The notes under the pieces are model-generated. The model did not search any database and had not been told where the DNA came from. It worked only from the letters and a program-made list of their open reading frames with translations. Shown here one piece after another: positions 23,139 through 31,136 of a DNA stretch of 64,000 nucleotides. The first letter of the stretch is position 1. Every line of letters begins with the position of its first letter. The position numbers and the translations under genes were made by a program. Source of the DNA: Limisphaerales bacterium (GTDB lineage Bacteria; Verrucomicrobiota; Verrucomicrobiia; Limisphaerales; JADJPG01); assembly GCA_044229355.1 (NCBI GenBank), contig JBGATF010000010.1, positions 202,321-266,320 of the forward strand, in the 5' to 3' direction.

Positions 23139-24083
23139 CTATTCCTCCACGCGTGTGGGCACCCAATCGACGGTGCGGAGCTCTTCGTTGAATTCGAATT
23201 CCGATTTGCCCTGGATCGAGTCGCCGTCGAGGACGCCCCAGTATTTGGTCACCGTGACGGTGCCGAACCGCTCGCGCTCGACTTCGAATGAAATATTTCC
23301 GTCTTTGAATGTCGCGTTGGTGATTTCGGTGTCGCCGCTGCGACCTTTCATTTTGCCCGTCAATTTGTCGCCTTCGAGCTTGAGCACGACCTCGCTGCGG
23401 AAGCCGCCGCCGCGTCCGGCTCCGCCGCCGCCCGAACGTCCGCCCGGGGCGGGACCCTGGCTGGCACTGGAGTTGGCGGTGGTGCCGGCTCCGGTCGCTC
23501 CCGCGCCAGCGGCATTGCCGGTCCCCGGTCGTCCGCCTCCGGGGCCGCGTCCGAAGTTCACCTCCCACCGCCAGGTGCCGGTTGGCGAATCCGAGGCGCG
23601 CCGAGCTTCCCACGGATAGGTCGCCTTTTCCCCGGTCCAATCCGACTCGATCGTGCCGTTCAGCAATCCTTCGGTCAGCCGCCCCGAGTAACGGGTGGTG
23701 ACCTTGCGGCCCGCGTGTTCGCGCACGACCAACCAGCTGACGCGGTCGCCGTCGACATGACCGTCGCTGATGGGGACCTCGGTGCCTGGGCCGATCAGCG
23801 ACGTGCCAGTGAGGAGGTTGCCGTCGAATTTAATCCTGGCGCGCGGCTGGGACTTTGTTCCGTCGGGCATGATGAAGGTCCACTTCCAGGTGCCTTGGAG
23901 CTTTGGCTTGGCCGGCAACTCGGCCGCCAGCGAGCTGCTCGCGTAAAGAGCGAGCGCGGCGACGAGCCCGAGGGTGGCGTGCAGCGCCCGGAGCGGCCGT
24001 GCCGCGGCGAGGCGACGGCCCTCGCTGTGCAGGAGGGGAGAAGGAAGAGTGGGCATAGGATGGTTGGGGTTGCTGCGCGTCAC
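23139..24083 (-). CDS. hypothetical secreted two-domain protein with Gly-rich linker
   Basis: 314 aa. Signal peptide (LHATLGLVAALALYASSSLAAE), two beta-rich halves separated by GRGPGGGRPGTGNAAGAGATGAGTT...GGRSGGGGAGRGGG. Confidence 0.4.
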   Translation of the reverse strand: MTRSNPNHPMPTLPSPLLHSEGRRLAAARPLRALHATLGLVAALALYASSSLAAELPAKPKLQGTWKWTFIMPDGTKSQPRARIKFDGNLLTGTSLIGPGTEVPISDGHVDGDRVSWLVVREHAGRKVTTRYSGRLTEGLLNGTIESDWTGEKATYPWEARRASDSPTGTWRWEVNFGRGPGGGRPGTGNAAGAGATGAGTTANSSASQGPAPGGRSGGGGAGRGGGFRSEVVLKLEGDKLTGKMKGRSGDTEITNATFKDGNISFEVERERFGTVTVTKYWGVLDGDSIQGKSEFEFNEELRTVDWVPTRVEE

Positions 24084-27000
24084 GGCGTGCGCGCCGGCAC
24101 GGCGTAGCGCAGGGAGATTTTTTCCTCGTTGCGGTTGTTACGGCCGCTGAATTTGACTTCCATTTTGCTTCCGTGGTCGATGACGGTGACGAAGCCGAAG
24201 CCGCCCTCGCCGTCGCGCTCGCGGACGCGATACACGCCCTGGCTGTAGGGGCCGCCTTTGAGCGACGGGTTTTGGTCGAGAGGCGCGGCGCACATGACGG
24301 GGATGTGGACGCCGCCGCCGGTGGCGAAGTCACCATTGCTCCCATCATCTGCCGCCAGCATGTGGGAATCGCCGTGGAGGATGGCGACACCCTGGATGTG
24401 GTTTTCCTTGATGAAGTCGCAGATCTCGCGGCGCTCGGTGGCGAAGACGCTCCAATGATCCTGGTCGCCGATCGACGGGGCGTTGGTTTGCGCGCCGCCG
24501 CGACCGCCGGTGCCGCCGCGGCCGCCGCCCGGACCGCGCGCACGTCCGCCGTCCCGGTTGGTCCGCGCGGAGGGCGAATTGGTCAATGTGGTGTGGTGCA
24601 GATAACCCCAGTCGTTGGTGGTCACGCGGTAATAGTTGGTTCCGATCTGGCCGAGCCATGGGACGGTGCTGACCCAGAAGATGACGGGATATTTGCCGTT
24701 AGCCGCCAGCAGCTCTTGCTTGAACCACTCCTTTTGCCGGGCGCCCATCATGGACTTGGTCGCGTCGTCCTTGTTTGTGACGGAGTCCCGCTCGGAGCGC
24801 AGGTCAGTGATGATGAATTTAGTCCGGCCGACATTGAAGGACTGGTAAATCGCCTCGGGGCCTGCGCCGGTGACCAGAGGATAATGCGGGACATATTCCC
24901 GGTAGGCCATTCGGACGGCTTCGTGCGACAGGGCGTTTTTGTTGGCGTTGTTTCCGCCGTAATCGTGGTCGTCCCACACGTAGAAAAAGGCCGTGCTGCG
25001 ATAGAGTCGGGATTGCTGGGGCGAGGTCAGGACCAGGTCGTAGGCCTGACGGAACTTGTCGATGCTGCTGTTCGTCAGATCGAGATAATGAAAGTCCCCG
25101 ATGTTCATGTAGAACAGCGGGTGATTTTCGCGAATGGCGTCGAAGATGTCGCTGGTCGATGCCGTGCGTGCGCACGAGGCATAGGCGAAGCTGAACGATT
25201 TCGGGTCCGGTGGAAACGTGCGAAACTGCCCGCTCTTGCCGCGCTCCAGGCGGCCGTTCACTTCAACGACGTAGTAATATTGCGTGTCGGGCGCGAGCTG
25301 GCTGAGCTGGAATGCGACGACGTCGTAATGACTGGTGGACGATTGGGCGGGCCCGAAGTAGCGAAGGCCGGTGAGGTTTGATCTGGTGGTGAGGCCGAGG
25401 CGCGCATGCAGGCCGGGGCGGGAGAGCCGGACCTTGGCGTTGGCTTCGGTGGTGGCGACACCTCCGACCCACGGCCCGCGGGCGATCTCGGAATAGGCCA
25501 CTCCGAGCTGTTCAAAAAGGAATGAGTAACGATCCACGCGCTGGGCCACCCGTTCGTCGAGGGGGGTACCCAATCCATGCCCGCTCGTGGCGCTGGTGCG
25601 CAGCAGCACGGGACGACGCGACGCGGTGGCGGTCTGGAGGCGCGCGGCCATCTTGCGGGAGTGACCGGGATTGACCCGGCCGTCGTGCGCCCCGGTCATG
25701 AGGAGCACGGCCGGATAGGCCACCCGGTCGGTCACGCGGTGGTACGGGGAGTAGGCGTGCAACGCCTTGAATTGCGCCGGATCTTTGACCGAGCCGTACT
25801 CCGTGGTGTTGAATTGACCGTTGGGATCCAGTTCCACCCGCAACATGTCGAACAAGCCGACTTCAGCCACCGCCGCCCGGAACAGGTCCGGCCTCTGGGT
25901 CAGGGCGGCTCCGACCAACAGTCCGCCGTTGCTGCCGCCATGGATGGCCAGCCGGGCCGCTGACGTGTAATTCGATCGGATGAGCAGTTCGGCGCAGGCG
26001 ATGAAATCGTCGAAGACATTTTGCTTCTGCAACAGCCGGCCCCCGTCGTGCCACGCTTCGCCGAGCTCACCGCCGCCCCGCAGGCGCGCGATGACGACCT
26101 GGCCGCCTTGATCAAACCAGACCCGCCGCGTGAAGTCGAAATGCGGCACCTGACTGATGCCGAAGCCACCATAGCCCGTCAGGATGGTCGGCGTCTGGCC
26201 GTCCAGGGACTGGCCACGCCGGCGCAGAATGGTCATCGGGACGCGGGTCCCATCCTTCGAATGGGCGGCCGCCCGCACGACTTCGATATCCCGGAAGTCC
26301 GCCGGGGTGATCCCTTCGAGCGCGGTGTCGAGCATGCGCGTCGGGCTGACGGCCGGGTTGTAGACCTGCCATTCATATGGCGCGGTGTAGGTTTCGGTGC
26401 GGACCAGCACCTCATCGCCCCGGGGGCAGAACATCTCGTCGACCGCGAACAGGCTGTTGATCGGCAGGCGCCACTCGTTGCGCGGACCGCGCGGCGGCCG
26501 GCCGGAGCGCCCTTCGTCCGCATTCGTCGACCCGGTTGAATTCGGATTCGCATTGGCTCCACCGCTTTCCGGTTCCTGCCCGGACGTGTTGCCTTCCGCA
26601 TTGCTCGCCGATCCGGCGGCCGGGGTGTTTCCGGTCTGGCCCTCCTGGTTCTCGTTGGATCCCGCGGCCTCTGAAGATTCGGTTTCGCCCGATTCCGGCT
26701 GGCCGGTGGCCGACAGATAGAAATCGTGAAACCGGAGCGAGGCCGCCCCGCCGATGCGGTCTTCGATGTACAAACCGCGGGCCGAGGTCACGAAACTGGC
26801 GATGGCGTTGGTCCGGGCATTGATGACCTCGATGGCAGCCGAGAGCCGTTCCTCGGCCAGGGGCAGCCGGAGGATTCGTCCCATCGGCGCGTCCTTCGTC
26901 GACAAGAGGTAGAGCGCGTTGTCCCGCGGCCACTCGATGTAGATGGGGTCGCGACCGAACTGGATCGACTTGACCTTGTCGGCCGCTCCCGCGACTTGGC

Positions 27001-27892
27001 GCCACTTCCCCGCCGGGTCGCGCAGAAAGTGCAGAAAATCTCCGCCGTCACCGTCGCCCACCGAGGCCAGCAGGTATTTGCCGTCGTCGCTTGTCTTGAG
27101 CTGCACCTCGCCGATGCGGGGAAATTCGCGCCCGAGCTCGTAGCGATCCGCGGCGGCGGGCGTGCCGAGTTGATGGAAATAGACCTGTTGATAAAAGCGC
27201 GCGTCGGCTGGCGGGCGTTCCTCCGGCGCCGGGTAGCGAGTGTAGAAGAAACCCGAGCCGTCGTGGCTCCACGCCACGCTGCCGCCCGCCGTGGGGAATT
27301 GGACACGCGGGATGATGTCGGCGCGCCGCGTTCCGGAGGCGACTGCAAACACGTAAAGAGTCCCAGCCTCGCTGCCGGATTCGGACAACGACACCGCGAT
27401 GAGGCTGCCGTCGGGCGACGGCTCGTAAAAATCGATGCTGGTGCCGCCGCGGGGATCGAGGGCGTTGGGATCGATGACGACCCGTTCCGAGGAAAGATTG
27501 GTCAGCGACGTGAAGGTCACGAGGACCGACTGTTGCGCGGGCGGCTTGAACGCGATGGCGAAATACGCGCCGCGCCGCGCGCGCAGGTCGGAGTAATCCG
27601 CCGACACCACGCCGTAGAGTCGCTCCAGCTGGTAGACCAAATCCTTCCTCGTCGGGAGTGAGTCCAGGTGTTCGCGGGCGGCGCGGTTCTGGGCTTCCGT
27701 CCAGGTGCGGACCGCCGCGGATTCACCGTTCTCCAGCCATTGATACGGATCCTCCACCGCGATCCCGTGATAGTCGTTGCGGACAGGCTGGCGGGGGGTG
27801 CGCACCGTGGCGGCGGGGGAATCGATTCCGGTCAGCCAGCAGAAAATCGCGACGGCCAGCATGGACATGGCGTTCGGGCGAAGGCGGTGCAT
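24080..27892 (-). CDS. secreted fusion protein: prolyl oligopeptidase (S9A, N-terminal ~810 aa) plus PhoD-like metallophosphatase (C-terminal ~450 aa)
   Basis: One continuous 1270-aa ORF. N-terminal signal peptide; YHGIAVEDPYQWLEN (POP N-terminal motif), a beta-propeller region, catalytic GGSNGGLLVG / AHDGRV / SGHG triad. Then the PhoD_N beta-sandwich (YYYVVEVNGRLERGKSGQFRTFP) and PhoD motifs FAYASCAR, GDFHYLD, WDDHDYGGNN, GDSHM. A ~90-aa low-complexity insertion (QPESGETESSEAAGSNENQEGQTGNT...) sits in the POP part. Confidence 0.75.
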   Translation of the reverse strand: MHRLRPNAMSMLAVAIFCWLTGIDSPAATVRTPRQPVRNDYHGIAVEDPYQWLENGESAAVRTWTEAQNRAAREHLDSLPTRKDLVYQLERLYGVVSADYSDLRARRGAYFAIAFKPPAQQSVLVTFTSLTNLSSERVVIDPNALDPRGGTSIDFYEPSPDGSLIAVSLSESGSEAGTLYVFAVASGTRRADIIPRVQFPTAGGSVAWSHDGSGFFYTRYPAPEERPPADARFYQQVYFHQLGTPAAADRYELGREFPRIGEVQLKTSDDGKYLLASVGDGDGGDFLHFLRDPAGKWRQVAGAADKVKSIQFGRDPIYIEWPRDNALYLLSTKDAPMGRILRLPLAEERLSAAIEVINARTNAIASFVTSARGLYIEDRIGGAASLRFHDFYLSATGQPESGETESSEAAGSNENQEGQTGNTPAAGSASNAEGNTSGQEPESGGANANPNSTGSTNADEGRSGRPPRGPRNEWRLPINSLFAVDEMFCPRGDEVLVRTETYTAPYEWQVYNPAVSPTRMLDTALEGITPADFRDIEVVRAAAHSKDGTRVPMTILRRRGQSLDGQTPTILTGYGGFGISQVPHFDFTRRVWFDQGGQVVIARLRGGGELGEAWHDGGRLLQKQNVFDDFIACAELLIRSNYTSAARLAIHGGSNGGLLVGAALTQRPDLFRAAVAEVGLFDMLRVELDPNGQFNTTEYGSVKDPAQFKALHAYSPYHRVTDRVAYPAVLLMTGAHDGRVNPGHSRKMAARLQTATASRRPVLLRTSATSGHGLGTPLDERVAQRVDRYSFLFEQLGVAYSEIARGPWVGGVATTEANAKVRLSRPGLHARLGLTTRSNLTGLRYFGPAQSSTSHYDVVAFQLSQLAPDTQYYYVVEVNGRLERGKSGQFRTFPPDPKSFSFAYASCARTASTSDIFDAIRENHPLFYMNIGDFHYLDLTNSSIDKFRQAYDLVLTSPQQSRLYRSTAFFYVWDDHDYGGNNANKNALSHEAVRMAYREYVPHYPLVTGAGPEAIYQSFNVGRTKFIITDLRSERDSVTNKDDATKSMMGARQKEWFKQELLAANGKYPVIFWVSTVPWLGQIGTNYYRVTTNDWGYLHHTTLTNSPSARTNRDGGRARGPGGGRGGTGGRGGAQTNAPSIGDQDHWSVFATERREICDFIKENHIQGVAILHGDSHMLAADDGSNGDFATGGGVHIPVMCAAPLDQNPSLKGGPYSQGVYRVRERDGEGGFGFVTVIDHGSKMEVKFSGRNNRNEEKISLRYAVPARTP

Positions 27893-28090: not shown

Positions 28091-29269
28091 TCAGCGCACG
28101 TTACCGGCTCGGAGCTGGGCGAGTGGATAAAACGTTTCGCGCCAGCGGATCCCCCCGCGACACGAGGCCTTCGCGGCCGAGTTGATCAGCGCGTAGAAGA
28201 AGATGGGAAACATCAGCGGGATGAGCAGCGCGCCGCCCAGGCGCCAGCGCAAGCGTCGGGCCAGAACCATCCCGGGAACGATCAGCGAAAGCGGGGAAAG
28301 CGCGGCGGCTATACCTACAGGTGTACCGGAGAGAAGTCCGAGAATGATCACGGCCGAAGTAGAAAGCGCCACGACGGTCCCGAGCAAGACGAGCGAGGTT
28401 CGATATTCCAGCGCGGCGAAATAATTCTTCTCCATTATTTTTACGATGCTGAAGGCATTCCGGCCCCAATACGCCTCCACATCGTCGCCGCCGATAAACC
28501 CTCGCGTGCGTTTTCCGGCGCGCCGGAGAAGGAGCCCCAGCTTCATGTCGTCGAGGACGGTCAGCCGGAGCGCCTCGTACCCACCGCACTGCCGGTACGC
28601 CGCCGTCCGCACGAGATTAAACGCGCCGAATCCGAGGAAACGCTTTCCCGTGTCGCGATTCACTTCCGAAAACCAGTTGGCGGTCCCGGTGAGAAATAAC
28701 AGATGCGAGGCCACCAGGCCTCGCGTTTTTACAGAGATGCCGGACGCCAGCGTGATGTGGTCCACGTGTTCGCGTTCGGCGAGGCGGCAGGCTCTCGCGA
28801 TCACGTCTGGTTTCAACCAGCAATCCGCATCGGTAAACAGGATCCATTCGCCGGTGGCCGCGCCGGCGCCGAGGTGGCACGCGTGACACTTGCCGAGCCA
28901 GCCCTCGGGCAAGTTCGCCACGCGTTTTATCTGGATGCGGGGGTCTTCGTCCGAAAGCCGCCCGAGGATCGCGGCGGTCTGATCCTTGGAGCGATCGTCC
29001 ACAAGGATGATTTCCAGGTCCACGCCCAGTTGCTGAAGGAGGCACCGAATGGTCTGTTCGACGCGTGCCTCTTCGTCGCGCGCCGCGATGACCACTGAGC
29101 AGCGCACTTTGCCGTTGGCTGGCGGCAATTGATCCGAGGACGGCAATCGCGGCACCCAGCGCAAGTGCCACAATGTGACGACCGTCATGGCGAAGAACGC
29201 GGCCGCGGTGCCGCTGTAGAGGATCGTCATCCACATCCGCCGTGGATCGTCGCGAGAAACGTCCAACAA
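28091..29269 (-). CDS. family-2 glycosyltransferase (membrane-associated)
   Basis: 392 aa. GT-A motifs CSVVIAARDEEARVEQTI, DxD in ILVDDRS and FTDADC, C-terminal TM helices. Confidence 0.7.
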   Translation of the reverse strand: MLDVSRDDPRRMWMTILYSGTAAAFFAMTVVTLWHLRWVPRLPSSDQLPPANGKVRCSVVIAARDEEARVEQTIRCLLQQLGVDLEIILVDDRSKDQTAAILGRLSDEDPRIQIKRVANLPEGWLGKCHACHLGAGAATGEWILFTDADCWLKPDVIARACRLAEREHVDHITLASGISVKTRGLVASHLLFLTGTANWFSEVNRDTGKRFLGFGAFNLVRTAAYRQCGGYEALRLTVLDDMKLGLLLRRAGKRTRGFIGGDDVEAYWGRNAFSIVKIMEKNYFAALEYRTSLVLLGTVVALSTSAVIILGLLSGTPVGIAAALSPLSLIVPGMVLARRLRWRLGGALLIPLMFPIFFYALINSAAKASCRGGIRWRETFYPLAQLRAGNVR

Positions 29270-29388: not shown

Positions 29389-30189
29389 CTACCGTTGGCT
29401 GCCAACGAATGCGGCGAACAATCCGGCGACGAGCGCGAGGACCAAAAGGCCGAACAAGATCCAGACCACGATGGAGGTGCGGTATTTGATGTGAGGCGTC
29501 TGCTGGATGACGGCTTGATACTCGTCGGAGAACACCGTTTGTCCCTTTTGACTGAAGACGAGGTAGAGGATGTAACCGTTGATCAGCGTCCCGAGCGGGA
29601 ACCCGAGCAGGCCGAGGCCGGAAAGAATTCCGGTGGGGACGCGCGCCCATTTTTGCAGGCGCCGGAGGCCTGTGCCCACCCAGAGCTGGCCCGCGCCCAG
29701 CAAGAGGAGAAAGACTCCGACCAAGATGGCTAACCGGGGGCCATCCCTGGTGATCGACAGGAAACTCATCAATCCGACGAGCAACAGCCCTGCGCCGCCC
29801 AGATAGTAGAGCAGTCCGACCGATTTGATCGATGCTTCGTGTTTGAGGTGCTCCTTTCTCATTTGCTCGGCCGCAGTGCTGCCGCTCGCGCCTTCTTTCA
29901 GCCGCTGCAGGGCGAGGGGTTTGCACGCGGCACAGTAGACCGCGCCGGAGAGCGGGATGACCTCTGCGGCCGGAAAGGTGTGTCCGCAGCCGGCGCAAAT
30001 CGATCCGCTGGTTGCTGCGCGGGGCAGATCGGGTGTGGAGGCGACATGGCCGTACGGCTGCCAGTCGGCCATTCCTTCGCGCCAGACCAACGTTTGGGAA
30101 GTGACGACGCCTTGTTGAACGAGCTGCTGGAATTCATCTTCGTTCACCGGCCCTTTTTGTTCGGCTCCAGTCGCGTAGTGCCAGTTCAT
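29389..30189 (-). CDS. DUF4339 (GYF-like) domain membrane protein with Cys-rich zinc-ribbon-like segment and 4 TM helices
   Basis: Track ORF 29389..30297; the likely start is MNWHYATGAEQKGPVNEDEFQQLVQQGVVTSQTLVWREGMADWQPY (DUF4339 motif W-Y-Y...GP...L..L...G.I...T.VW..GM..W.P) at 30189. Followed by CAGCGH...CAAC and four hydrophobic helices. Confidence 0.55.
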   Translation of the reverse strand: MNWHYATGAEQKGPVNEDEFQQLVQQGVVTSQTLVWREGMADWQPYGHVASTPDLPRAATSGSICAGCGHTFPAAEVIPLSGAVYCAACKPLALQRLKEGASGSTAAEQMRKEHLKHEASIKSVGLLYYLGGAGLLLVGLMSFLSITRDGPRLAILVGVFLLLLGAGQLWVGTGLRRLQKWARVPTGILSGLGLLGFPLGTLINGYILYLVFSQKGQTVFSDEYQAVIQQTPHIKYRTSIVVWILFGLLVLALVAGLFAAFVGSQR

Positions 30190-30230
30190 GCGTGGATTGC
30201 TGGTGTTGCTGAGGGACGGTCGGGGCCAGT

Positions 30231-31136
30231 TCAAGAACGCCGATACTTGGATCCGGACGGCATGGTTTTGAAGCGATCGAGCGCGCTGCGTTTCCAATCG
30301 CCGCCTTCGCTCCCGGAGTGGTGCGTGTAGGGAGTTCCTGTTGTCGACGAAGGGGCGGGCGCGGGCGTGGCCGCACTCGCCGGGGCCGTGTCGCTGGCCG
30401 TCGCCGGAGTTGGCGCCGTCGCTGGCGGGCGCGCGGGCTCAGGAGCCGGGGTGGGCGACGGGCGACGTTCGAAAAACGAGGTCGAGACAAATGCGCTTGG
30501 CGAAGGCGCCGGCGCGGGTGTGGTCGCGGGTGTGGTCGCGGGCGGAGCGGCTGGTGAAACGGCCGGGGGAGCCGGCGTGGCGTGGCGGCTGGGCAGGGGC
30601 GGGGGCGTGGCGAGGTCGGAATCGTCAACCTGCCAGCCGAGGCGGACGCTCGGCGTGGGCCCGACATGCACCTCGACATTTCGGTAATGCAGCGTGGAGA
30701 GGCGGAGCTTTTCGCTGACTCCGTCGGCCTTGGCCAGGGCGGCGAGCAGGCCGTAGATGGTCTGCCGGCTGGAGTGAGTCGACATCAGAGATCGCAGGGT
30801 GGGCTCCGAGACCGCGGAGATTTTGTGGAAATGAACGATCAGGCGCTGGATGGGGCTAATCTCCATGTCGACCGCGGCCAGGGCATAGCCGGCCTCGGCG
30901 AAAACTTCGGCGTGGTCGTTAATCTCCCGCAAGGCCTGGGCGAGGCGATCGTCGCTGTCCGCGCGCAGGCCGGTGACGCTGGATTGGACGTCCATGCGCA
31001 ATTGTTGGAGCTGGCCGGCGGTCATCAGGACGGTATCGCGCAACTGGGCGGCCTGGCCGGGGGCGGCTTCGACGACCTGCTTCAGGTGGGCGGCCTTTTG
31101 GCTGAGGTCCTGGATTTTGGTGATGAACTTTTTCAT
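30231..31136 (-). CDS. hypothetical protein: helical N-domain plus Pro/Ala/Thr-rich disordered C-terminal half
   Basis: 301 aa. MKKFITKIQDLSQKAAHLKQVVEAAPGQAAQLRDTV... then PPPLPSRHATPAPPAVSPAAPPATTPATTPAPAPSP...PAPEPARPPATAPTPATASDTAPASAATPAPAPSST. 40 bp downstream of the giant ATPase gene, same strand. Confidence 0.4.
   Translation of the reverse strand: MKKFITKIQDLSQKAAHLKQVVEAAPGQAAQLRDTVLMTAGQLQQLRMDVQSSVTGLRADSDDRLAQALREINDHAEVFAEAGYALAAVDMEISPIQRLIVHFHKISAVSEPTLRSLMSTHSSRQTIYGLLAALAKADGVSEKLRLSTLHYRNVEVHVGPTPSVRLGWQVDDSDLATPPPLPSRHATPAPPAVSPAAPPATTPATTPAPAPSPSAFVSTSFFERRPSPTPAPEPARPPATAPTPATASDTAPASAATPAPAPSSTTGTPYTHHSGSEGGDWKRSALDRFKTMPSGSKYRRS

What the first reader, a model, noticed from the sequence alone, without database searches (positions are those of the whole stretch)
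24080..27892. Unusual single-polypeptide fusion of a prolyl oligopeptidase (S9A) and a PhoD-like phosphatase
Both halves are complete with intact catalytic residues (GGSNGG/D/H triad; PhoD FAxxSC, GDxxY, WDDHD, GDSH metal ligands). They are joined in one 1270-aa secreted ORF. A protease-phosphatase fusion could process phosphorylated, Pro-containing extracellular substrates, for example scavenging from phosphopeptides. I am not aware of this domain combination as a described family. A ~90-aa acidic, low-complexity insertion lies within the POP region.
Basis: partly seen in the sequence, partly recalled or inferred. Interest (0 to 1): 0.6.

Follow-up and report, generated by a model that had tools for sequence, protein, structure and literature searches.

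The report
Exported peptidase–phosphatase fusion with partner gene
A soil-type Verrucomicrobial genome encodes one exported protein that joins a prolyl-oligopeptidase-like protease to a PhoD-type phosphatase; the fusion is real and common in that phylum, no paper we found describes it, and it usually sits beside a small unknown barrel protein, but both enzyme halves are known kinds.

Summary
Window 24080-27892 (minus strand) is one 1270-aa ORF with a signal peptide, Pfam Peptidase_S9_N + Peptidase_S9, then PhoD. It is not a frameshift or chimera. An independent assembly encodes the identical protein, and the best 120 database relatives (51-72% identity, named Verrucomicrobiota where named) share the architecture and a short conserved junction.

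Catalytic residues of both halves are near-invariant across 120 members. An AlphaFold model of a 1150-aa homolog has pTM 0.85.

New findings:
- A secreted 230-314-aa orphan protein (two avidin-like beta-barrels) lies directly downstream in 27 of 32 fused loci. It is absent from all standalone POP or PhoD-like loci checked.
- At least three lineages have lost the peptidase triad while keeping every phosphatase ligand, so the phosphoesterase is the constant function.
- The S1 Trp that stacks on proline in classical POPs is Asn here, so proline specificity is not assured.
- Both low-complexity insertions are hypervariable loops.

The phosphopeptide-processing idea is untested and somewhat weakened. 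No paper in the searched library describes the architecture; pipelines label it only "prolyl oligopeptidase".

Verdict: real; a new domain-architecture variant of known enzyme families, of moderate interest.

The parts
24080..27892 (-). Complete ORF of the POP-PhoD fusion protein (1270 aa plus TGA stop at 24082-24080)
   Evidence: ORF list; Pfam S9_N + S9 + PhoD; 120 best relatives with the same architecture; identical protein in an independent assembly.
27809..27892 (-). Predicted Sec-type signal peptide (about residues 1-28, MHRLRPNAMSMLAVAIFCWLTGIDSPAA); no twin-arginine motif
   Evidence: Read from the sequence. N-termini of 113 homologs all have a hydrophobic leader, and 30 have lipobox-like Cys. 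No signal-peptide predictor was run.
26717..27787 (-). POP N-terminal segment and beta-propeller domain (residues 36-392)
   Evidence: Pfam PF02897 E 3.9e-48. The homolog model matches closed POP 2bkl with TM 0.91 normalised to the target.
26468..26710 (-). Variable insertion 1: acidic low-complexity loop (residues 395-475) in a hairpin of the last propeller blade
   Evidence: Composition and net charge -7. Length 13-103 aa across 120 homologs, with no invariant columns. The flanking strands are E360-366 and E371-374 in the P0094 model.
25502..26455 (-). End of the propeller and the alpha/beta-hydrolase catalytic domain (residues 480-797). Triad codons: S654 25931-25933, D737 25682-25684, H772 25577-25579. 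Oxyanion Tyr is Y574. N695 replaces the S1 Trp.
   Evidence: Pfam PF00326 E 2.5e-53. PDB 2bkl E 2e-81 with residue alignment. Conservation 118/120, 120/120 and 119/120. W-to-N mapping.
25208..25501 (-). Short linker (residues 798-804) and PhoD_N-type beta-sandwich (805-895), starting with the conserved RGPW motif
   Evidence: R805, G806, P807 and W808 are invariant in 29 aligned sequences. PhoD_N is sub-threshold in the query (15.9 bits) but on record for many homologs. The model shows beta strands 701-789 in P0094.
24098..25207 (-). PhoD-type metallophosphoesterase core (residues 896-1265) with ligands C907, D933, Y936, D974, D975, N981/N982, D1175 and H1177
   Evidence: Pfam PF09423 at 84.6 bits. 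Motif-by-motif alignment to B. subtilis PhoD 2yeq. Ligand list from PMC4223295. Conservation 117-120 of 120.
24467..24592 (-). Variable insertion 2: Arg/Gly-rich loop (residues 1101-1142) inside the PhoD core, encoded partly by GC-rich 3/9/12-nt tandem repeats
   Evidence: Length 25-109 aa across homologs. Tandem repeats at 24493-24557. Low pLDDT for the matching loop in the model.
23139..24083 (-). Conserved downstream partner gene: a secreted orphan protein (314 aa from GTG 24083, which overlaps the fusion's stop as GTGA; or 305 aa from ATG 24056) made of two homologous avidin/streptavidin-like 8-stranded beta-barrels joined by a Gly-rich linker

Best explanation
The gene encodes an exported multi-domain hydrolase typical of a clade of Verrucomicrobiota. 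It is probably periplasmic or cell-surface, and is lipid-anchored in some relatives.

The N-terminal two-thirds is an S9A prolyl-oligopeptidase-type unit: a seven-bladed propeller capping an alpha/beta-hydrolase with Ser654-Asp737-His772. A roughly 7-residue linker joins it to a PhoD_N beta-sandwich and a PhoD-type Fe3+/Ca2+ phosphoesterase, whose ligands are Cys907, Asp933, Tyr936, Asp974, Asp975, Asn981/982, Asp1175 and His1177.

Shown:
- The ORF is real and both catalytic sites are intact and conserved.
- The fusion is fixed in a large clade.
- A secreted tandem avidin-like barrel protein is encoded immediately downstream in most fused loci and only there.
- The phosphoesterase ligands are never lost, whereas the peptidase triad has been lost several times.

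Inferred:
- In this organism the protein carries two hydrolytic activities, an oligopeptidase and a phosphodi-/monoesterase, at separate active sites on one rigid body.
- The phosphoesterase is the core function. The POP body adds peptide cleavage and probably a structural or substrate-handling role.
- The enzyme works with the barrel protein on extracytoplasmic organic phosphorus and nitrogen substrates.
- The peptidase's P1 preference may differ from strict proline.
For: - ORF and domains.
- Same architecture in all 120 best relatives, from four data sources, named Verrucomicrobia/-ota where named.
- Identical protein in an independent assembly.
- Catalytic and ligand residues conserved in 117-120 of 120 sequences.
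- Similar conservation of both catalytic domains (64% against 65-71% mean identity).
- POP half matches M. xanthus PEP (phmmer E 7e-104), and the model superposes on closed POPs at TM 0.91.
- PhoD motifs align one by one to B. subtilis PhoD, whose ligands were defined by structure and mutagenesis (PMC4223295).
- Full-length AF2 model of homolog P0094: pLDDT 85.9, pTM 0.85 over 1150 residues. The linker is short and the RGPW junction invariant.
- Leader peptides throughout the family.
- Partner gene linked specifically to the fused form.
- Peptidase-dead but phosphatase-intact members: L123, P0088, and P0103 on 14 contigs.
Against: - No activity was measured for either half.
- The S1 Trp (porcine W595) is Asn695, and that loop has low model confidence. 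Peptidase specificity, and even efficient catalysis, are therefore uncertain.
- One CaB ligand of B. subtilis PhoD (Asn271) aligns with an invariant Gly980. A neighbouring Asn982 may or may not compensate.
- The PhoD half is only distantly related to characterised PhoDs (E about 1e-7 to 2yeq; NCBIfam PhoD equivalog 30.5 bits against a cut-off of 1000).
- No Pho-regulon or transporter genes are conserved nearby, so a nutrient-scavenging role is only an inference.
- pTM is the only handle on domain packing. Coordinates could not be inspected, so the relative position of the two active sites is unknown.
Confidence: 0.55

Rival explanations
1. The two active sites act in sequence on the same molecules: phosphorylated, proline-containing oligopeptides are trimmed by the POP half and dephosphorylated by the PhoD half, or the reverse. 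The fusion exists to channel such substrates.
For: The fusion is fixed, has a very short conserved linker, and is predicted to be one rigid body. The partner gene accompanies only the fused form, which suggests the fused protein does something neither standalone enzyme does. Some structural neighbours of the partner barrels bind peptides: Gid4/Gid10 with N-terminal Pro/Gly peptides, and streptavidin with Strep-tag.
Against: The proline-stacking S1 Trp is replaced by Asn in the whole clade (PMC5589771). The peptidase triad is dispensable in at least three lineages that keep the phosphatase. Characterised PhoD enzymes act on teichoic acids, phospholipids and simple esters, not phosphopeptides (PMC4223295). 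Close relatives of the PhoD module are standalone or are fused to carbohydrate-binding, Ig-like or glycosyltransferase domains.
Confidence: 0.15
2. The protein is essentially a PhoD-type phosphoesterase. The POP body serves mainly as a non-catalytic module: a size filter, a substrate- or partner-binding platform, or a folding or anchoring scaffold. Its peptidase activity is residual or irrelevant.
For: Phosphatase ligands are invariant, whereas the peptidase nucleophile, oxyanion Tyr and His have been lost in L123, P0088 and P0103 with the POP fold retained. The S1 Trp is absent. The PhoD module recurs with many different accessory domains.
Against: In this window, and in 117 of 120 relatives, Ser-Asp-His, the oxyanion Tyr, Asn655 and Arg739 are all conserved. 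The POP catalytic domain is as conserved as the PhoD core, which argues for selection on catalysis. The same Trp-to-Asn clade includes many standalone POPs with intact triads.
Confidence: 0.2
3. Artefact: two adjacent genes (a POP and a PhoD-like phosphatase) were joined by a sequencing frameshift, a lost stop codon or a chimeric assembly.
For: None found. Long multi-domain ORFs in high-GC MAGs are a common place for such errors, which is why this was checked.
Against: The frame is continuous in all 120 best relatives from NCBI, JGI, ENA and Logan, in 27 metagenome loci, and in an independent assembly with 100% identity. The junction carries conserved residues. No split POP + PhoD gene pair was seen among 78 standalone POP loci or 23 standalone PhoD-like loci.
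Confidence: 0.01
4. The downstream barrel protein is a dedicated periplasmic inhibitor or chaperone of the fusion enzyme. It would resemble the operon-encoded 8-stranded beta-barrel inhibitors of secreted proteases: the serralysin inhibitors APRin/Inh, and the staphostatins. The analogy comes from general knowledge and was not tested here. The alternative is that the barrel protein carries substrate or product.
For: The pairing is strict, and the genes often overlap by 4 nt, which suggests translational coupling. The protein has its own leader. Its fold is a small up-and-down 8-stranded barrel. A lysozyme inhibitor (PliC) is among the structural neighbours.
Against: The best structural matches are ligand-binding avidins, with no sequence similarity to known inhibitors. 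Five fused loci, and the peptidase-dead P0103, lack the partner, while peptidase-dead L123 keeps it, so there is no simple link to protease activity. No complex prediction could be run.
Confidence: 0.1

Closest known systems
Bacterial prolyl endopeptidases / prolyl oligopeptidase, MEROPS S9A (Myxococcus xanthus PEP 2BKL; porcine POP 1QFM)
   Same: Same two-domain build, with a propeller and an alpha/beta hydrolase. Ser-Asp-His triad in a GGSNGG context. Oxyanion Tyr (Y574 = Y473). Arg739 = Arg643. Other S1 residues match: F577, L680, Y699, V740. phmmer E 7e-104. Model TM 0.91 to 2bkl.
   Different: The S1 Trp595 is Asn695 in the motif PNGxFN, a feature shared with a broad, apparently uncharacterised clade of standalone bacterial POPs. 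There is a lineage-specific ~80-aa disordered insertion in the last propeller blade. The C-terminus continues into a phosphatase. No NCBIfam equivalog reaches its cut-off.
Bacillus subtilis PhoD (PDB 2YEQ), the reference Fe3+/2Ca2+ phosphodiesterase/alkaline phosphatase
   Same: PhoD_N-type sandwich plus metallophosphatase core. The Cys (FAxASC), Asp/Tyr (GDxxY), Asp-Asp (WDDH) and Asp/His (GDxH) ligand motifs align. Pfam PhoD scores well above its threshold.
   Different: The relationship is very distant (E about 1e-7). There is no Tat signal, because the domain is internal and export must use the N-terminal Sec-type leader. No match to the C-terminal cap helix was seen; the aligned region ends at GDVH, and the Pfam match stops at profile position 273 of 343. 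The residue aligned to Asn271 is Gly. There is an Arg/Gly-rich variable insertion.
Standalone and multi-domain PhoD-like proteins of the same subfamily (for example P0152, 462 aa, labelled 'alkaline phosphatase D' by JGI; P0172 with CBM96 + Big_5; P0181 with CHB_HEX_C; P0210 with PMT)
   Same: The PhoD-like module is 40-56% identical, with PhoD_N + PhoD architecture.
   Different: These proteins have no POP domain and no partner gene nearby. Their accessory domains bind carbohydrate, are Ig-like, or are glycosyltransferases.
Avidin/streptavidin-like (calycin) 8-stranded beta-barrels, for the partner protein only
   Different: Identity is only 16-18%, and no hit to any Pfam family, the avidin family included, was listed even at E<=1. 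The protein is a tandem duplication. Biotin-binding residues were not examined. The family is restricted to the neighbourhood of the fusion gene.

Membership tests
Prolyl oligopeptidase family, MEROPS S9A | N-terminal beta-propeller domain (Pfam PF02897) capping the catalytic domain | tested here: met
   PF02897 E 3.9e-48, residues 36-392. The homolog model superposes on POP structures over ~700 residues.
Prolyl oligopeptidase family, MEROPS S9A | Alpha/beta-hydrolase domain (PF00326) with a Ser-Asp-His triad in a GxSxGG context, plus the oxyanion Tyr | tested here: met
   PF00326 E 2.5e-53. S654, D737, H772 and Y574 align with the catalytic residues of 2bkl and 3iuj. They are conserved in 118-120 of 120 sequences.
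Prolyl oligopeptidase family, MEROPS S9A | Proline-specific S1 pocket including Trp595 (porcine numbering), which stacks on the Pro ring | tested here: not met
   Asn695 occupies the Trp595 position, 41 residues after the Ser as in porcine POP with no indels. 2bkl, 3iuj and 1yr2 all have Trp. All 7 fusion loci and 33 standalone POP loci have F/Y-N there. The pocket definition comes from PMC5589771. The other pocket residues are conserved.
Prolyl oligopeptidase family, MEROPS S9A | Post-proline cleavage of oligopeptides shorter than about 30 residues | not testable with these tools
   Needs enzyme assays.
PhoD family phosphodiesterase/alkaline phosphatase | Match to Pfam PF09423 above the gathering score | tested here: met
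   79.7 bits for the full protein and 84.6 bits for the C-terminal half, against a cut-off of 27.
PhoD family phosphodiesterase/alkaline phosphatase | Fe3+ ligands Cys180, Asp207, Tyr210 and the bridging Asp436/His (B. subtilis numbering) | tested here: met
   C907, D933, Y936, D1175 and H1177 align in the FAxASC, GDxxY and GDxH motifs. Ligands are from PMC4223295. Conservation: C907 117/120 (Asp in the other 3), the others 120/120.
PhoD family phosphodiesterase/alkaline phosphatase | Ca2+ ligands Asp265, Asp266, Asn271, Asn272 | tested here: inconclusive
   D974 and D975 align and are invariant. N981 aligns with Asn272 and shows the N/D variation reported for that site. Asn271 aligns with the invariant Gly980, and the adjacent N982 (107/120) might substitute. 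Coordinates are needed to settle this.
PhoD family phosphodiesterase/alkaline phosphatase | N-terminal PhoD_N beta-sandwich domain (PF16655) | tested here: inconclusive
   The query scores 15.9 bits against a cut-off of 30. PF16655 is on record for many family members, and the model shows an all-beta domain at the right place.
PhoD family phosphodiesterase/alkaline phosphatase | Tat (twin-arginine) export signal, as in B. subtilis PhoD | tested here: not met
   The PhoD module is internal. The only leader is at the N-terminus of the POP half and has no RR motif. That canonical PhoD uses Tat export is general knowledge.
PhoD family phosphodiesterase/alkaline phosphatase | NCBIfam equivalog 'alkaline phosphatase PhoD' (NF058638) | tested here: not met
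   30.5 bits against a cut-off of 1000. It belongs to the family in the broad Pfam sense, but is not an equivalog of characterised PhoD.
Avidin/streptavidin family (partner protein) | 8-stranded up-and-down barrel of the avidin type | tested here: met
Avidin/streptavidin family (partner protein) | Sequence membership (a Pfam family match) and biotin-binding residues | tested here: not met
   No Pfam family was listed at E<=1. Identity to avidins is 16-18%. The biotin-contact residues themselves were not mapped.

The most novel reading that the evidence does not exclude
The fused enzyme and its barrel partner form a dedicated two-protein machine of soil and freshwater Verrucomicrobiota for one specific class of extracytoplasmic phospho-substrate, for example phosphorylated or phosphodiester-linked peptides or glycopeptides from cell walls or detritus. 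The POP propeller and cavity would select and hold the peptide part. The PhoD site would cleave the phosphoester. The tandem avidin-like barrels would capture a ligand or product, or regulate the enzyme. This would be a new mode of coupled organic N/P mineralisation. It would also be a new use of the POP fold, which is kept even where its catalytic triad is dead.
Probability: 0.12. Interest if true: 0.7.

Novelty: new variant of a known kind. Interest (0 to 1): 0.4.

Why it matters
Verrucomicrobiota are abundant soil and freshwater bacteria, and phoD is the standard marker gene for microbial organic-phosphorus mineralisation. This work shows that a sizeable Verrucomicrobial group of PhoD-like genes exists only as a fusion to a POP-type peptidase, which annotation pipelines label simply 'prolyl oligopeptidase'. 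It usually comes with a private accessory protein of unknown function.

That has two practical consequences:
- The phosphatase half is invisible in name-based surveys.
- The PhoD module's function here may be more specialised than generic phosphate scavenging.

The peptidase-dead variants and the Trp-to-Asn S1 pocket give enzymologists concrete, cheap experiments. The avidin-like partner is a new orphan family with a clear genomic hook. None of this overturns current understanding. It extends two well-known enzyme families with a new architecture.

Tried and rejected
It returned only 2 fused loci and 78 standalone POPs.
- Foldseek against afdb50, meant to show how UniProt describes this architecture, was unavailable.
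- I looked for a split POP + PhoD gene pair as 'Rosetta stone' evidence. The nearest standalone PhoD-like genes (P0152, P0153) have no POP neighbour, and none of the standalone POP loci has a PhoD-like gene within 8 kb.
- I looked for conserved Pho-regulon, transporter or other neighbours. Apart from the partner gene the contexts differ between loci: LigA and a GT2 glycosyltransferase here, other genes elsewhere.
- Promoter/terminator, Rfam and tRNA scans of the region and window found nothing informative.
- Literature searches for POP + PhoD, for PhoD + Verrucomicrobia + peptidase S9, and for PhoD-like + domain architecture + fusion + peptidase found no description. The single POP + PhoD hit was a typo for Rhodococcus.
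- I tested whether the fused genes form a single clade with an NJ tree of the PhoD halves. The partner-bearing fused genes cluster together. Basal fused groups interleave with a standalone clade, and there is no bootstrap support, so single versus multiple origin stays open.
- I considered that the downstream ORF in L117 might be a divergent partner. It is a formyltransferase.


Full report
**1. The observation**

Window 24080-27892 holds one uninterrupted ORF on the minus strand. It is 1270 aa with an ATG start. Pfam places three domains on it:
- Peptidase_S9_N at residues 36-392 (E 3.9e-48)
- Peptidase_S9 at 583-797 (E 2.5e-53)
- PhoD at 942-1185 (E 2.9e-22; 79.7 bits against a gathering score of 27)

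The N-terminus is MHRLRPNAMSMLAVAIFCWLTGIDSPAA|TV. It reads as a Sec-type leader and has no twin-arginine motif. This was judged by eye, because no predictor was available.

**2. Not an artefact, and not rare**

A search of 5.8 billion proteins gave 4712 hits. The best 120 all carry PF02897 + PF00326 + PF09423. They are 1039-1285 aa long and 51-72% identical to the query. They come from NCBI, JGI, ENA and Logan, and are named Verrucomicrobia/-ota/-iae where a name exists.

The identical protein is also encoded on an independent Logan assembly of SRR28480386. A metagenome scan seeded from the PhoD half found 27 more loci where the POP part runs straight into the PhoD part.

It is machine-annotated, almost always as 'prolyl oligopeptidase', and two JGI entries list both activities. 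Four full-text searches found no paper on it.

**3. Anatomy and conservation**

I aligned the query with 119 relatives. The key residues are conserved as follows.

| Residue | Conserved in |
|---|---|
| Ser654 | 118/120 |
| Asp737 | 120/120 |
| His772 | 119/120 |
| oxyanion Tyr574 | 118/120 |
| Cys907 | 117/120 (Asp in the other three) |
| Asp933, Tyr936, Asp974, Asp975, His976, His1173, Asp1175, His1177 | 120/120 each |

Cys-to-Asp is the PAP-like variant that the PhoD structure paper describes as a second subfamily (PMC4223295).

Mean identity to the query is similar in the POP catalytic domain (64%) and the PhoD core (65-71%). Both halves are therefore under comparable constraint.

The PhoD motifs align one by one with B. 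subtilis PhoD 2yeq, whose ligands were defined by structure and mutagenesis. One point stays open. Asn271 of PhoD aligns with the invariant Gly980, while Asn272 aligns with Asn981 (N in 107 sequences, D in 12, the variation reported for that site). The next residue, Asn982, might stand in for Asn271.

An AlphaFold2 model of the 1150-aa homolog P0094 has mean pLDDT 85.9 and pTM 0.85. Together with the 7-residue linker, this suggests one rigid body rather than beads on a string. Its POP part superposes on closed-form POPs (2bkl, TM 0.91 normalised to the target).

**4. The two low-complexity insertions**

It has net charge -7 and is rich in G/E/S/A/N. It sits between two strands of the last propeller blade. 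Across the family that loop ranges from 13 to 103 residues (median 22) and has no invariant column.

A second insertion, rich in Arg and Gly, spans residues 1101-1142 inside the PhoD core. It ranges from 25 to 109 residues across the family. It is partly encoded by GC-rich 3/9/12-nt tandem repeats at 24493-24557.

The partner gene in this lineage also carries a Gly-rich expansion that most relatives lack. All three look like lineage-specific, unconstrained expansions of surface loops, not functional hallmarks.

**5. The peptidase half is not a textbook POP**

In porcine POP the S1 pocket is formed by Phe476, Asn555, Val580, Trp595, Tyr599 and Val644, and the proline ring stacks on Trp595 (PMC5589771). 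The residue 41 positions after the nucleophile is Trp595 in porcine POP and Asn695 here. The three best bacterial structures (2bkl, 3iuj, 1yr2) all have Trp at that aligned position.

The motif is DPNGxFNxTEYG. It is shared by all 7 fusion loci examined and by 33 standalone POP genes among the 84 loci that could be aligned there. Those standalone genes come from Verrucomicrobiota, Acidobacteriota, Myxococcota, Planctomycetota and Actinomycetota. The other 44 loci have Trp.

The remaining pocket and oxyanion residues are conserved. The fused POP therefore belongs to a broad S9A subclade whose P1 preference should not be assumed to be proline; I found no characterised member. No NCBIfam equivalog reaches its cut-off.

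**6. The phosphatase half is a promiscuous module**

HMMER against 1.84 billion cluster representatives gave 5053 hits at E<=1e-3 and 1206 at E<=1e-30. Only two or three representatives are POP-fused, because the fused clade collapses at 50% identity. The next relatives (40-56% identical) fall into two groups:
- standalone 420-590-aa proteins, for example P0152, labelled 'alkaline phosphatase D' by JGI;
- multi-domain proteins carrying CBM96 + Big_5, CHB_HEX_C/Fn3_assoc, Big_7, a PMT glycosyltransferase or DUF7670.

The nearest standalone genes have no POP neighbour.

An NJ tree of 70 PhoD halves puts all partner-bearing fused genes except L123 in one clade. L123 and two fused groups without a partner branch near the base and interleave with a standalone clade. 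The tree has no support values, so one fusion with later loss and several independent fusions remain equally possible.

**7. A conserved partner gene**

Immediately downstream of the fusion (23139-24083, minus strand) lies an ORF of 314 aa. Its start is either GTG at 24083, overlapping the fusion's stop as GTGA, or ATG at 24056. It has its own leader peptide and no Pfam match.

| Set of loci | Partner present |
|---|---|
| First set of fused loci | 7 of 7 |
| Fused metagenome loci with enough downstream sequence | 20 of 25 |
| Total fused | 27 of 32 (25 of 29 after removing duplicates) |
| Further loci cut at the 5' edge, with PhoD half and partner | 9 |
| Standalone POP loci | 0 of 78 |
| Standalone PhoD-like loci | 0 of 23 |

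Starting instead from partner homologs leads back to a POP-PhoD gene each time. A 4-nt overlap occurs in several lineages.

The family is small and closed. A profile search gave 75 hits. All but the two weakest carry no Pfam domain, and every name given is 'hypothetical protein'; the organisms named are Verrucomicrobiota or Verrucomicrobiales.

**8. Peptidase-dead variants**

Three family members have lost the peptidase machinery while keeping every phosphatase ligand:
- L123: GGSNGG became GEDYGA, HDGRVNP became PESRFSP, SGHG became PAPD, and YGGFG became QGSEG. The partner is still downstream.
- P0088: Y574V, S654G, N655P, H772Q.
- P0103: Y574C, S654G, N655R. It occurs on 14 contigs from several samples, so it is not a sequencing error. 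It has no partner.

The reverse, an intact peptidase with dead phosphatase ligands, was not seen in 120 + 3 sequences. The phosphoesterase is therefore the constant function of the family. The POP body is kept even without catalysis, which points to a structural or substrate-handling role in addition to peptide cleavage.

**9. Most likely mechanism**

I think this is an exported hydrolase, periplasmic or surface-exposed. About a quarter of homologs have lipobox-like Cys motifs. It would have two independent active sites on one rigid body: an S9A-type oligopeptidase of uncertain P1 preference, and a PhoD-type Fe3+/Ca2+ phosphodi-/monoesterase. It would act together with a secreted tandem-barrel protein on extracytoplasmic organic matter.

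What is shown is the anatomy, the conservation, the gene linkage and the asymmetric loss of the two sites. Both activities, the localisation, the substrates and the partner's role are inferred.

It is weakened by the missing S1 Trp, by the dispensable triad, and by what is known of PhoD substrates (teichoic acid, phospholipid; PMC4223295). A scaffold-only role for the POP body is a serious rival for the family, but is less likely for this gene, where the triad is intact.

No conserved Pho-regulon or transport genes surround the locus. Its neighbours here are NAD-dependent DNA ligase, a GT2 glycosyltransferase and a GYF_2-domain membrane protein.

**10. Comparison, novelty and score**

Both enzyme halves belong to well-known superfamilies. 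The POP half meets the fold and triad criteria of S9A but fails the S1-Trp criterion. The PhoD half meets the Pfam and Fe-site criteria. It is inconclusive for one Ca ligand and for PhoD_N (15.9 bits against 30). It fails the Tat-signal and NCBIfam-equivalog criteria.

What is new:
- the fixed POP-PhoD architecture;
- its private avidin-like partner family;
- the pseudo-peptidase variants.

I rate it a new variant of a known kind, interest 0.4. It is a solid, testable lead for POP and PhoD enzymology and for phosphorus-cycling surveys, which would miss these genes by name. It is not a surprise at the level of mechanism or principle.

Noticed in passing
window 25808-25810 (codon of Asn695) and loci L008-L085: Asn replaces the proline-stacking S1 Trp (porcine W595) in the motif PNGxFN. 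The change is not limited to the fusion: 33 standalone POP genes from five phyla share it, including Myxococcus vastator (L025) and Solirubrobacter soli (L040). I know of no characterised member of this S9A subclade.
   Followed up: partly
window 23139-24083 (-): An orphan secreted protein made of two homologous avidin-like beta-barrels is tightly linked to the fusion gene (27 of 32 fused loci, never elsewhere). It has no Pfam family and is labelled 'hypothetical protein' in every source that names it.
   Followed up: yes
L123:3799-7356; proteins P0088 and P0103 (L171:4001-7639): These fusion-family members have lost the peptidase Ser, His and oxyanion Tyr but retain every PhoD metal ligand. 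They are natural pseudo-peptidase forms. P0103 occurs on 14 contigs.
   Followed up: yes
window 24467-24592, 26468-26710 and about 23400-23560: This lineage carries three independent low-complexity expansions in the two-gene cassette: an acidic S/G/N/E-rich loop in the propeller, an R/G-rich loop in the PhoD core, and a G-rich linker between the partner's two barrels. The PhoD-core loop overlaps GC-rich 3/9/12-nt tandem repeats, which suggests slippage-driven growth.
   Followed up: partly
window 24560-24571 (residues ~1108-1111) and homologs, for example P0099: A short 'RTNR' motif recurs in the otherwise variable insertion 2 across the family. P0099 has three copies of RTNR[NS]R. Its meaning is unknown.
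   Followed up: no
L007 (DATLZF010000853.1) and L010 (CAYVGC010000022.1): A fused POP-PhoD gene with its partner sits on a 5.5-kb contig binned as 'Candidatus Methylomirabilota'. A Verrucomicrobia-like POP sits on a contig binned as 'Bifidobacteriaceae'. Both are probably mis-binned MAG contigs rather than true taxonomic spread.
   Followed up: no
window 28091-29269 (-) and 29389-30297 (-): Upstream neighbours on the same strand are a family-2 glycosyltransferase and a GYF_2-domain membrane protein. A GYF_2 protein also lies near the fusion gene in L005. The other loci examined showed no GYF_2 or GT2 gene next to the fusion.
   Followed up: partly
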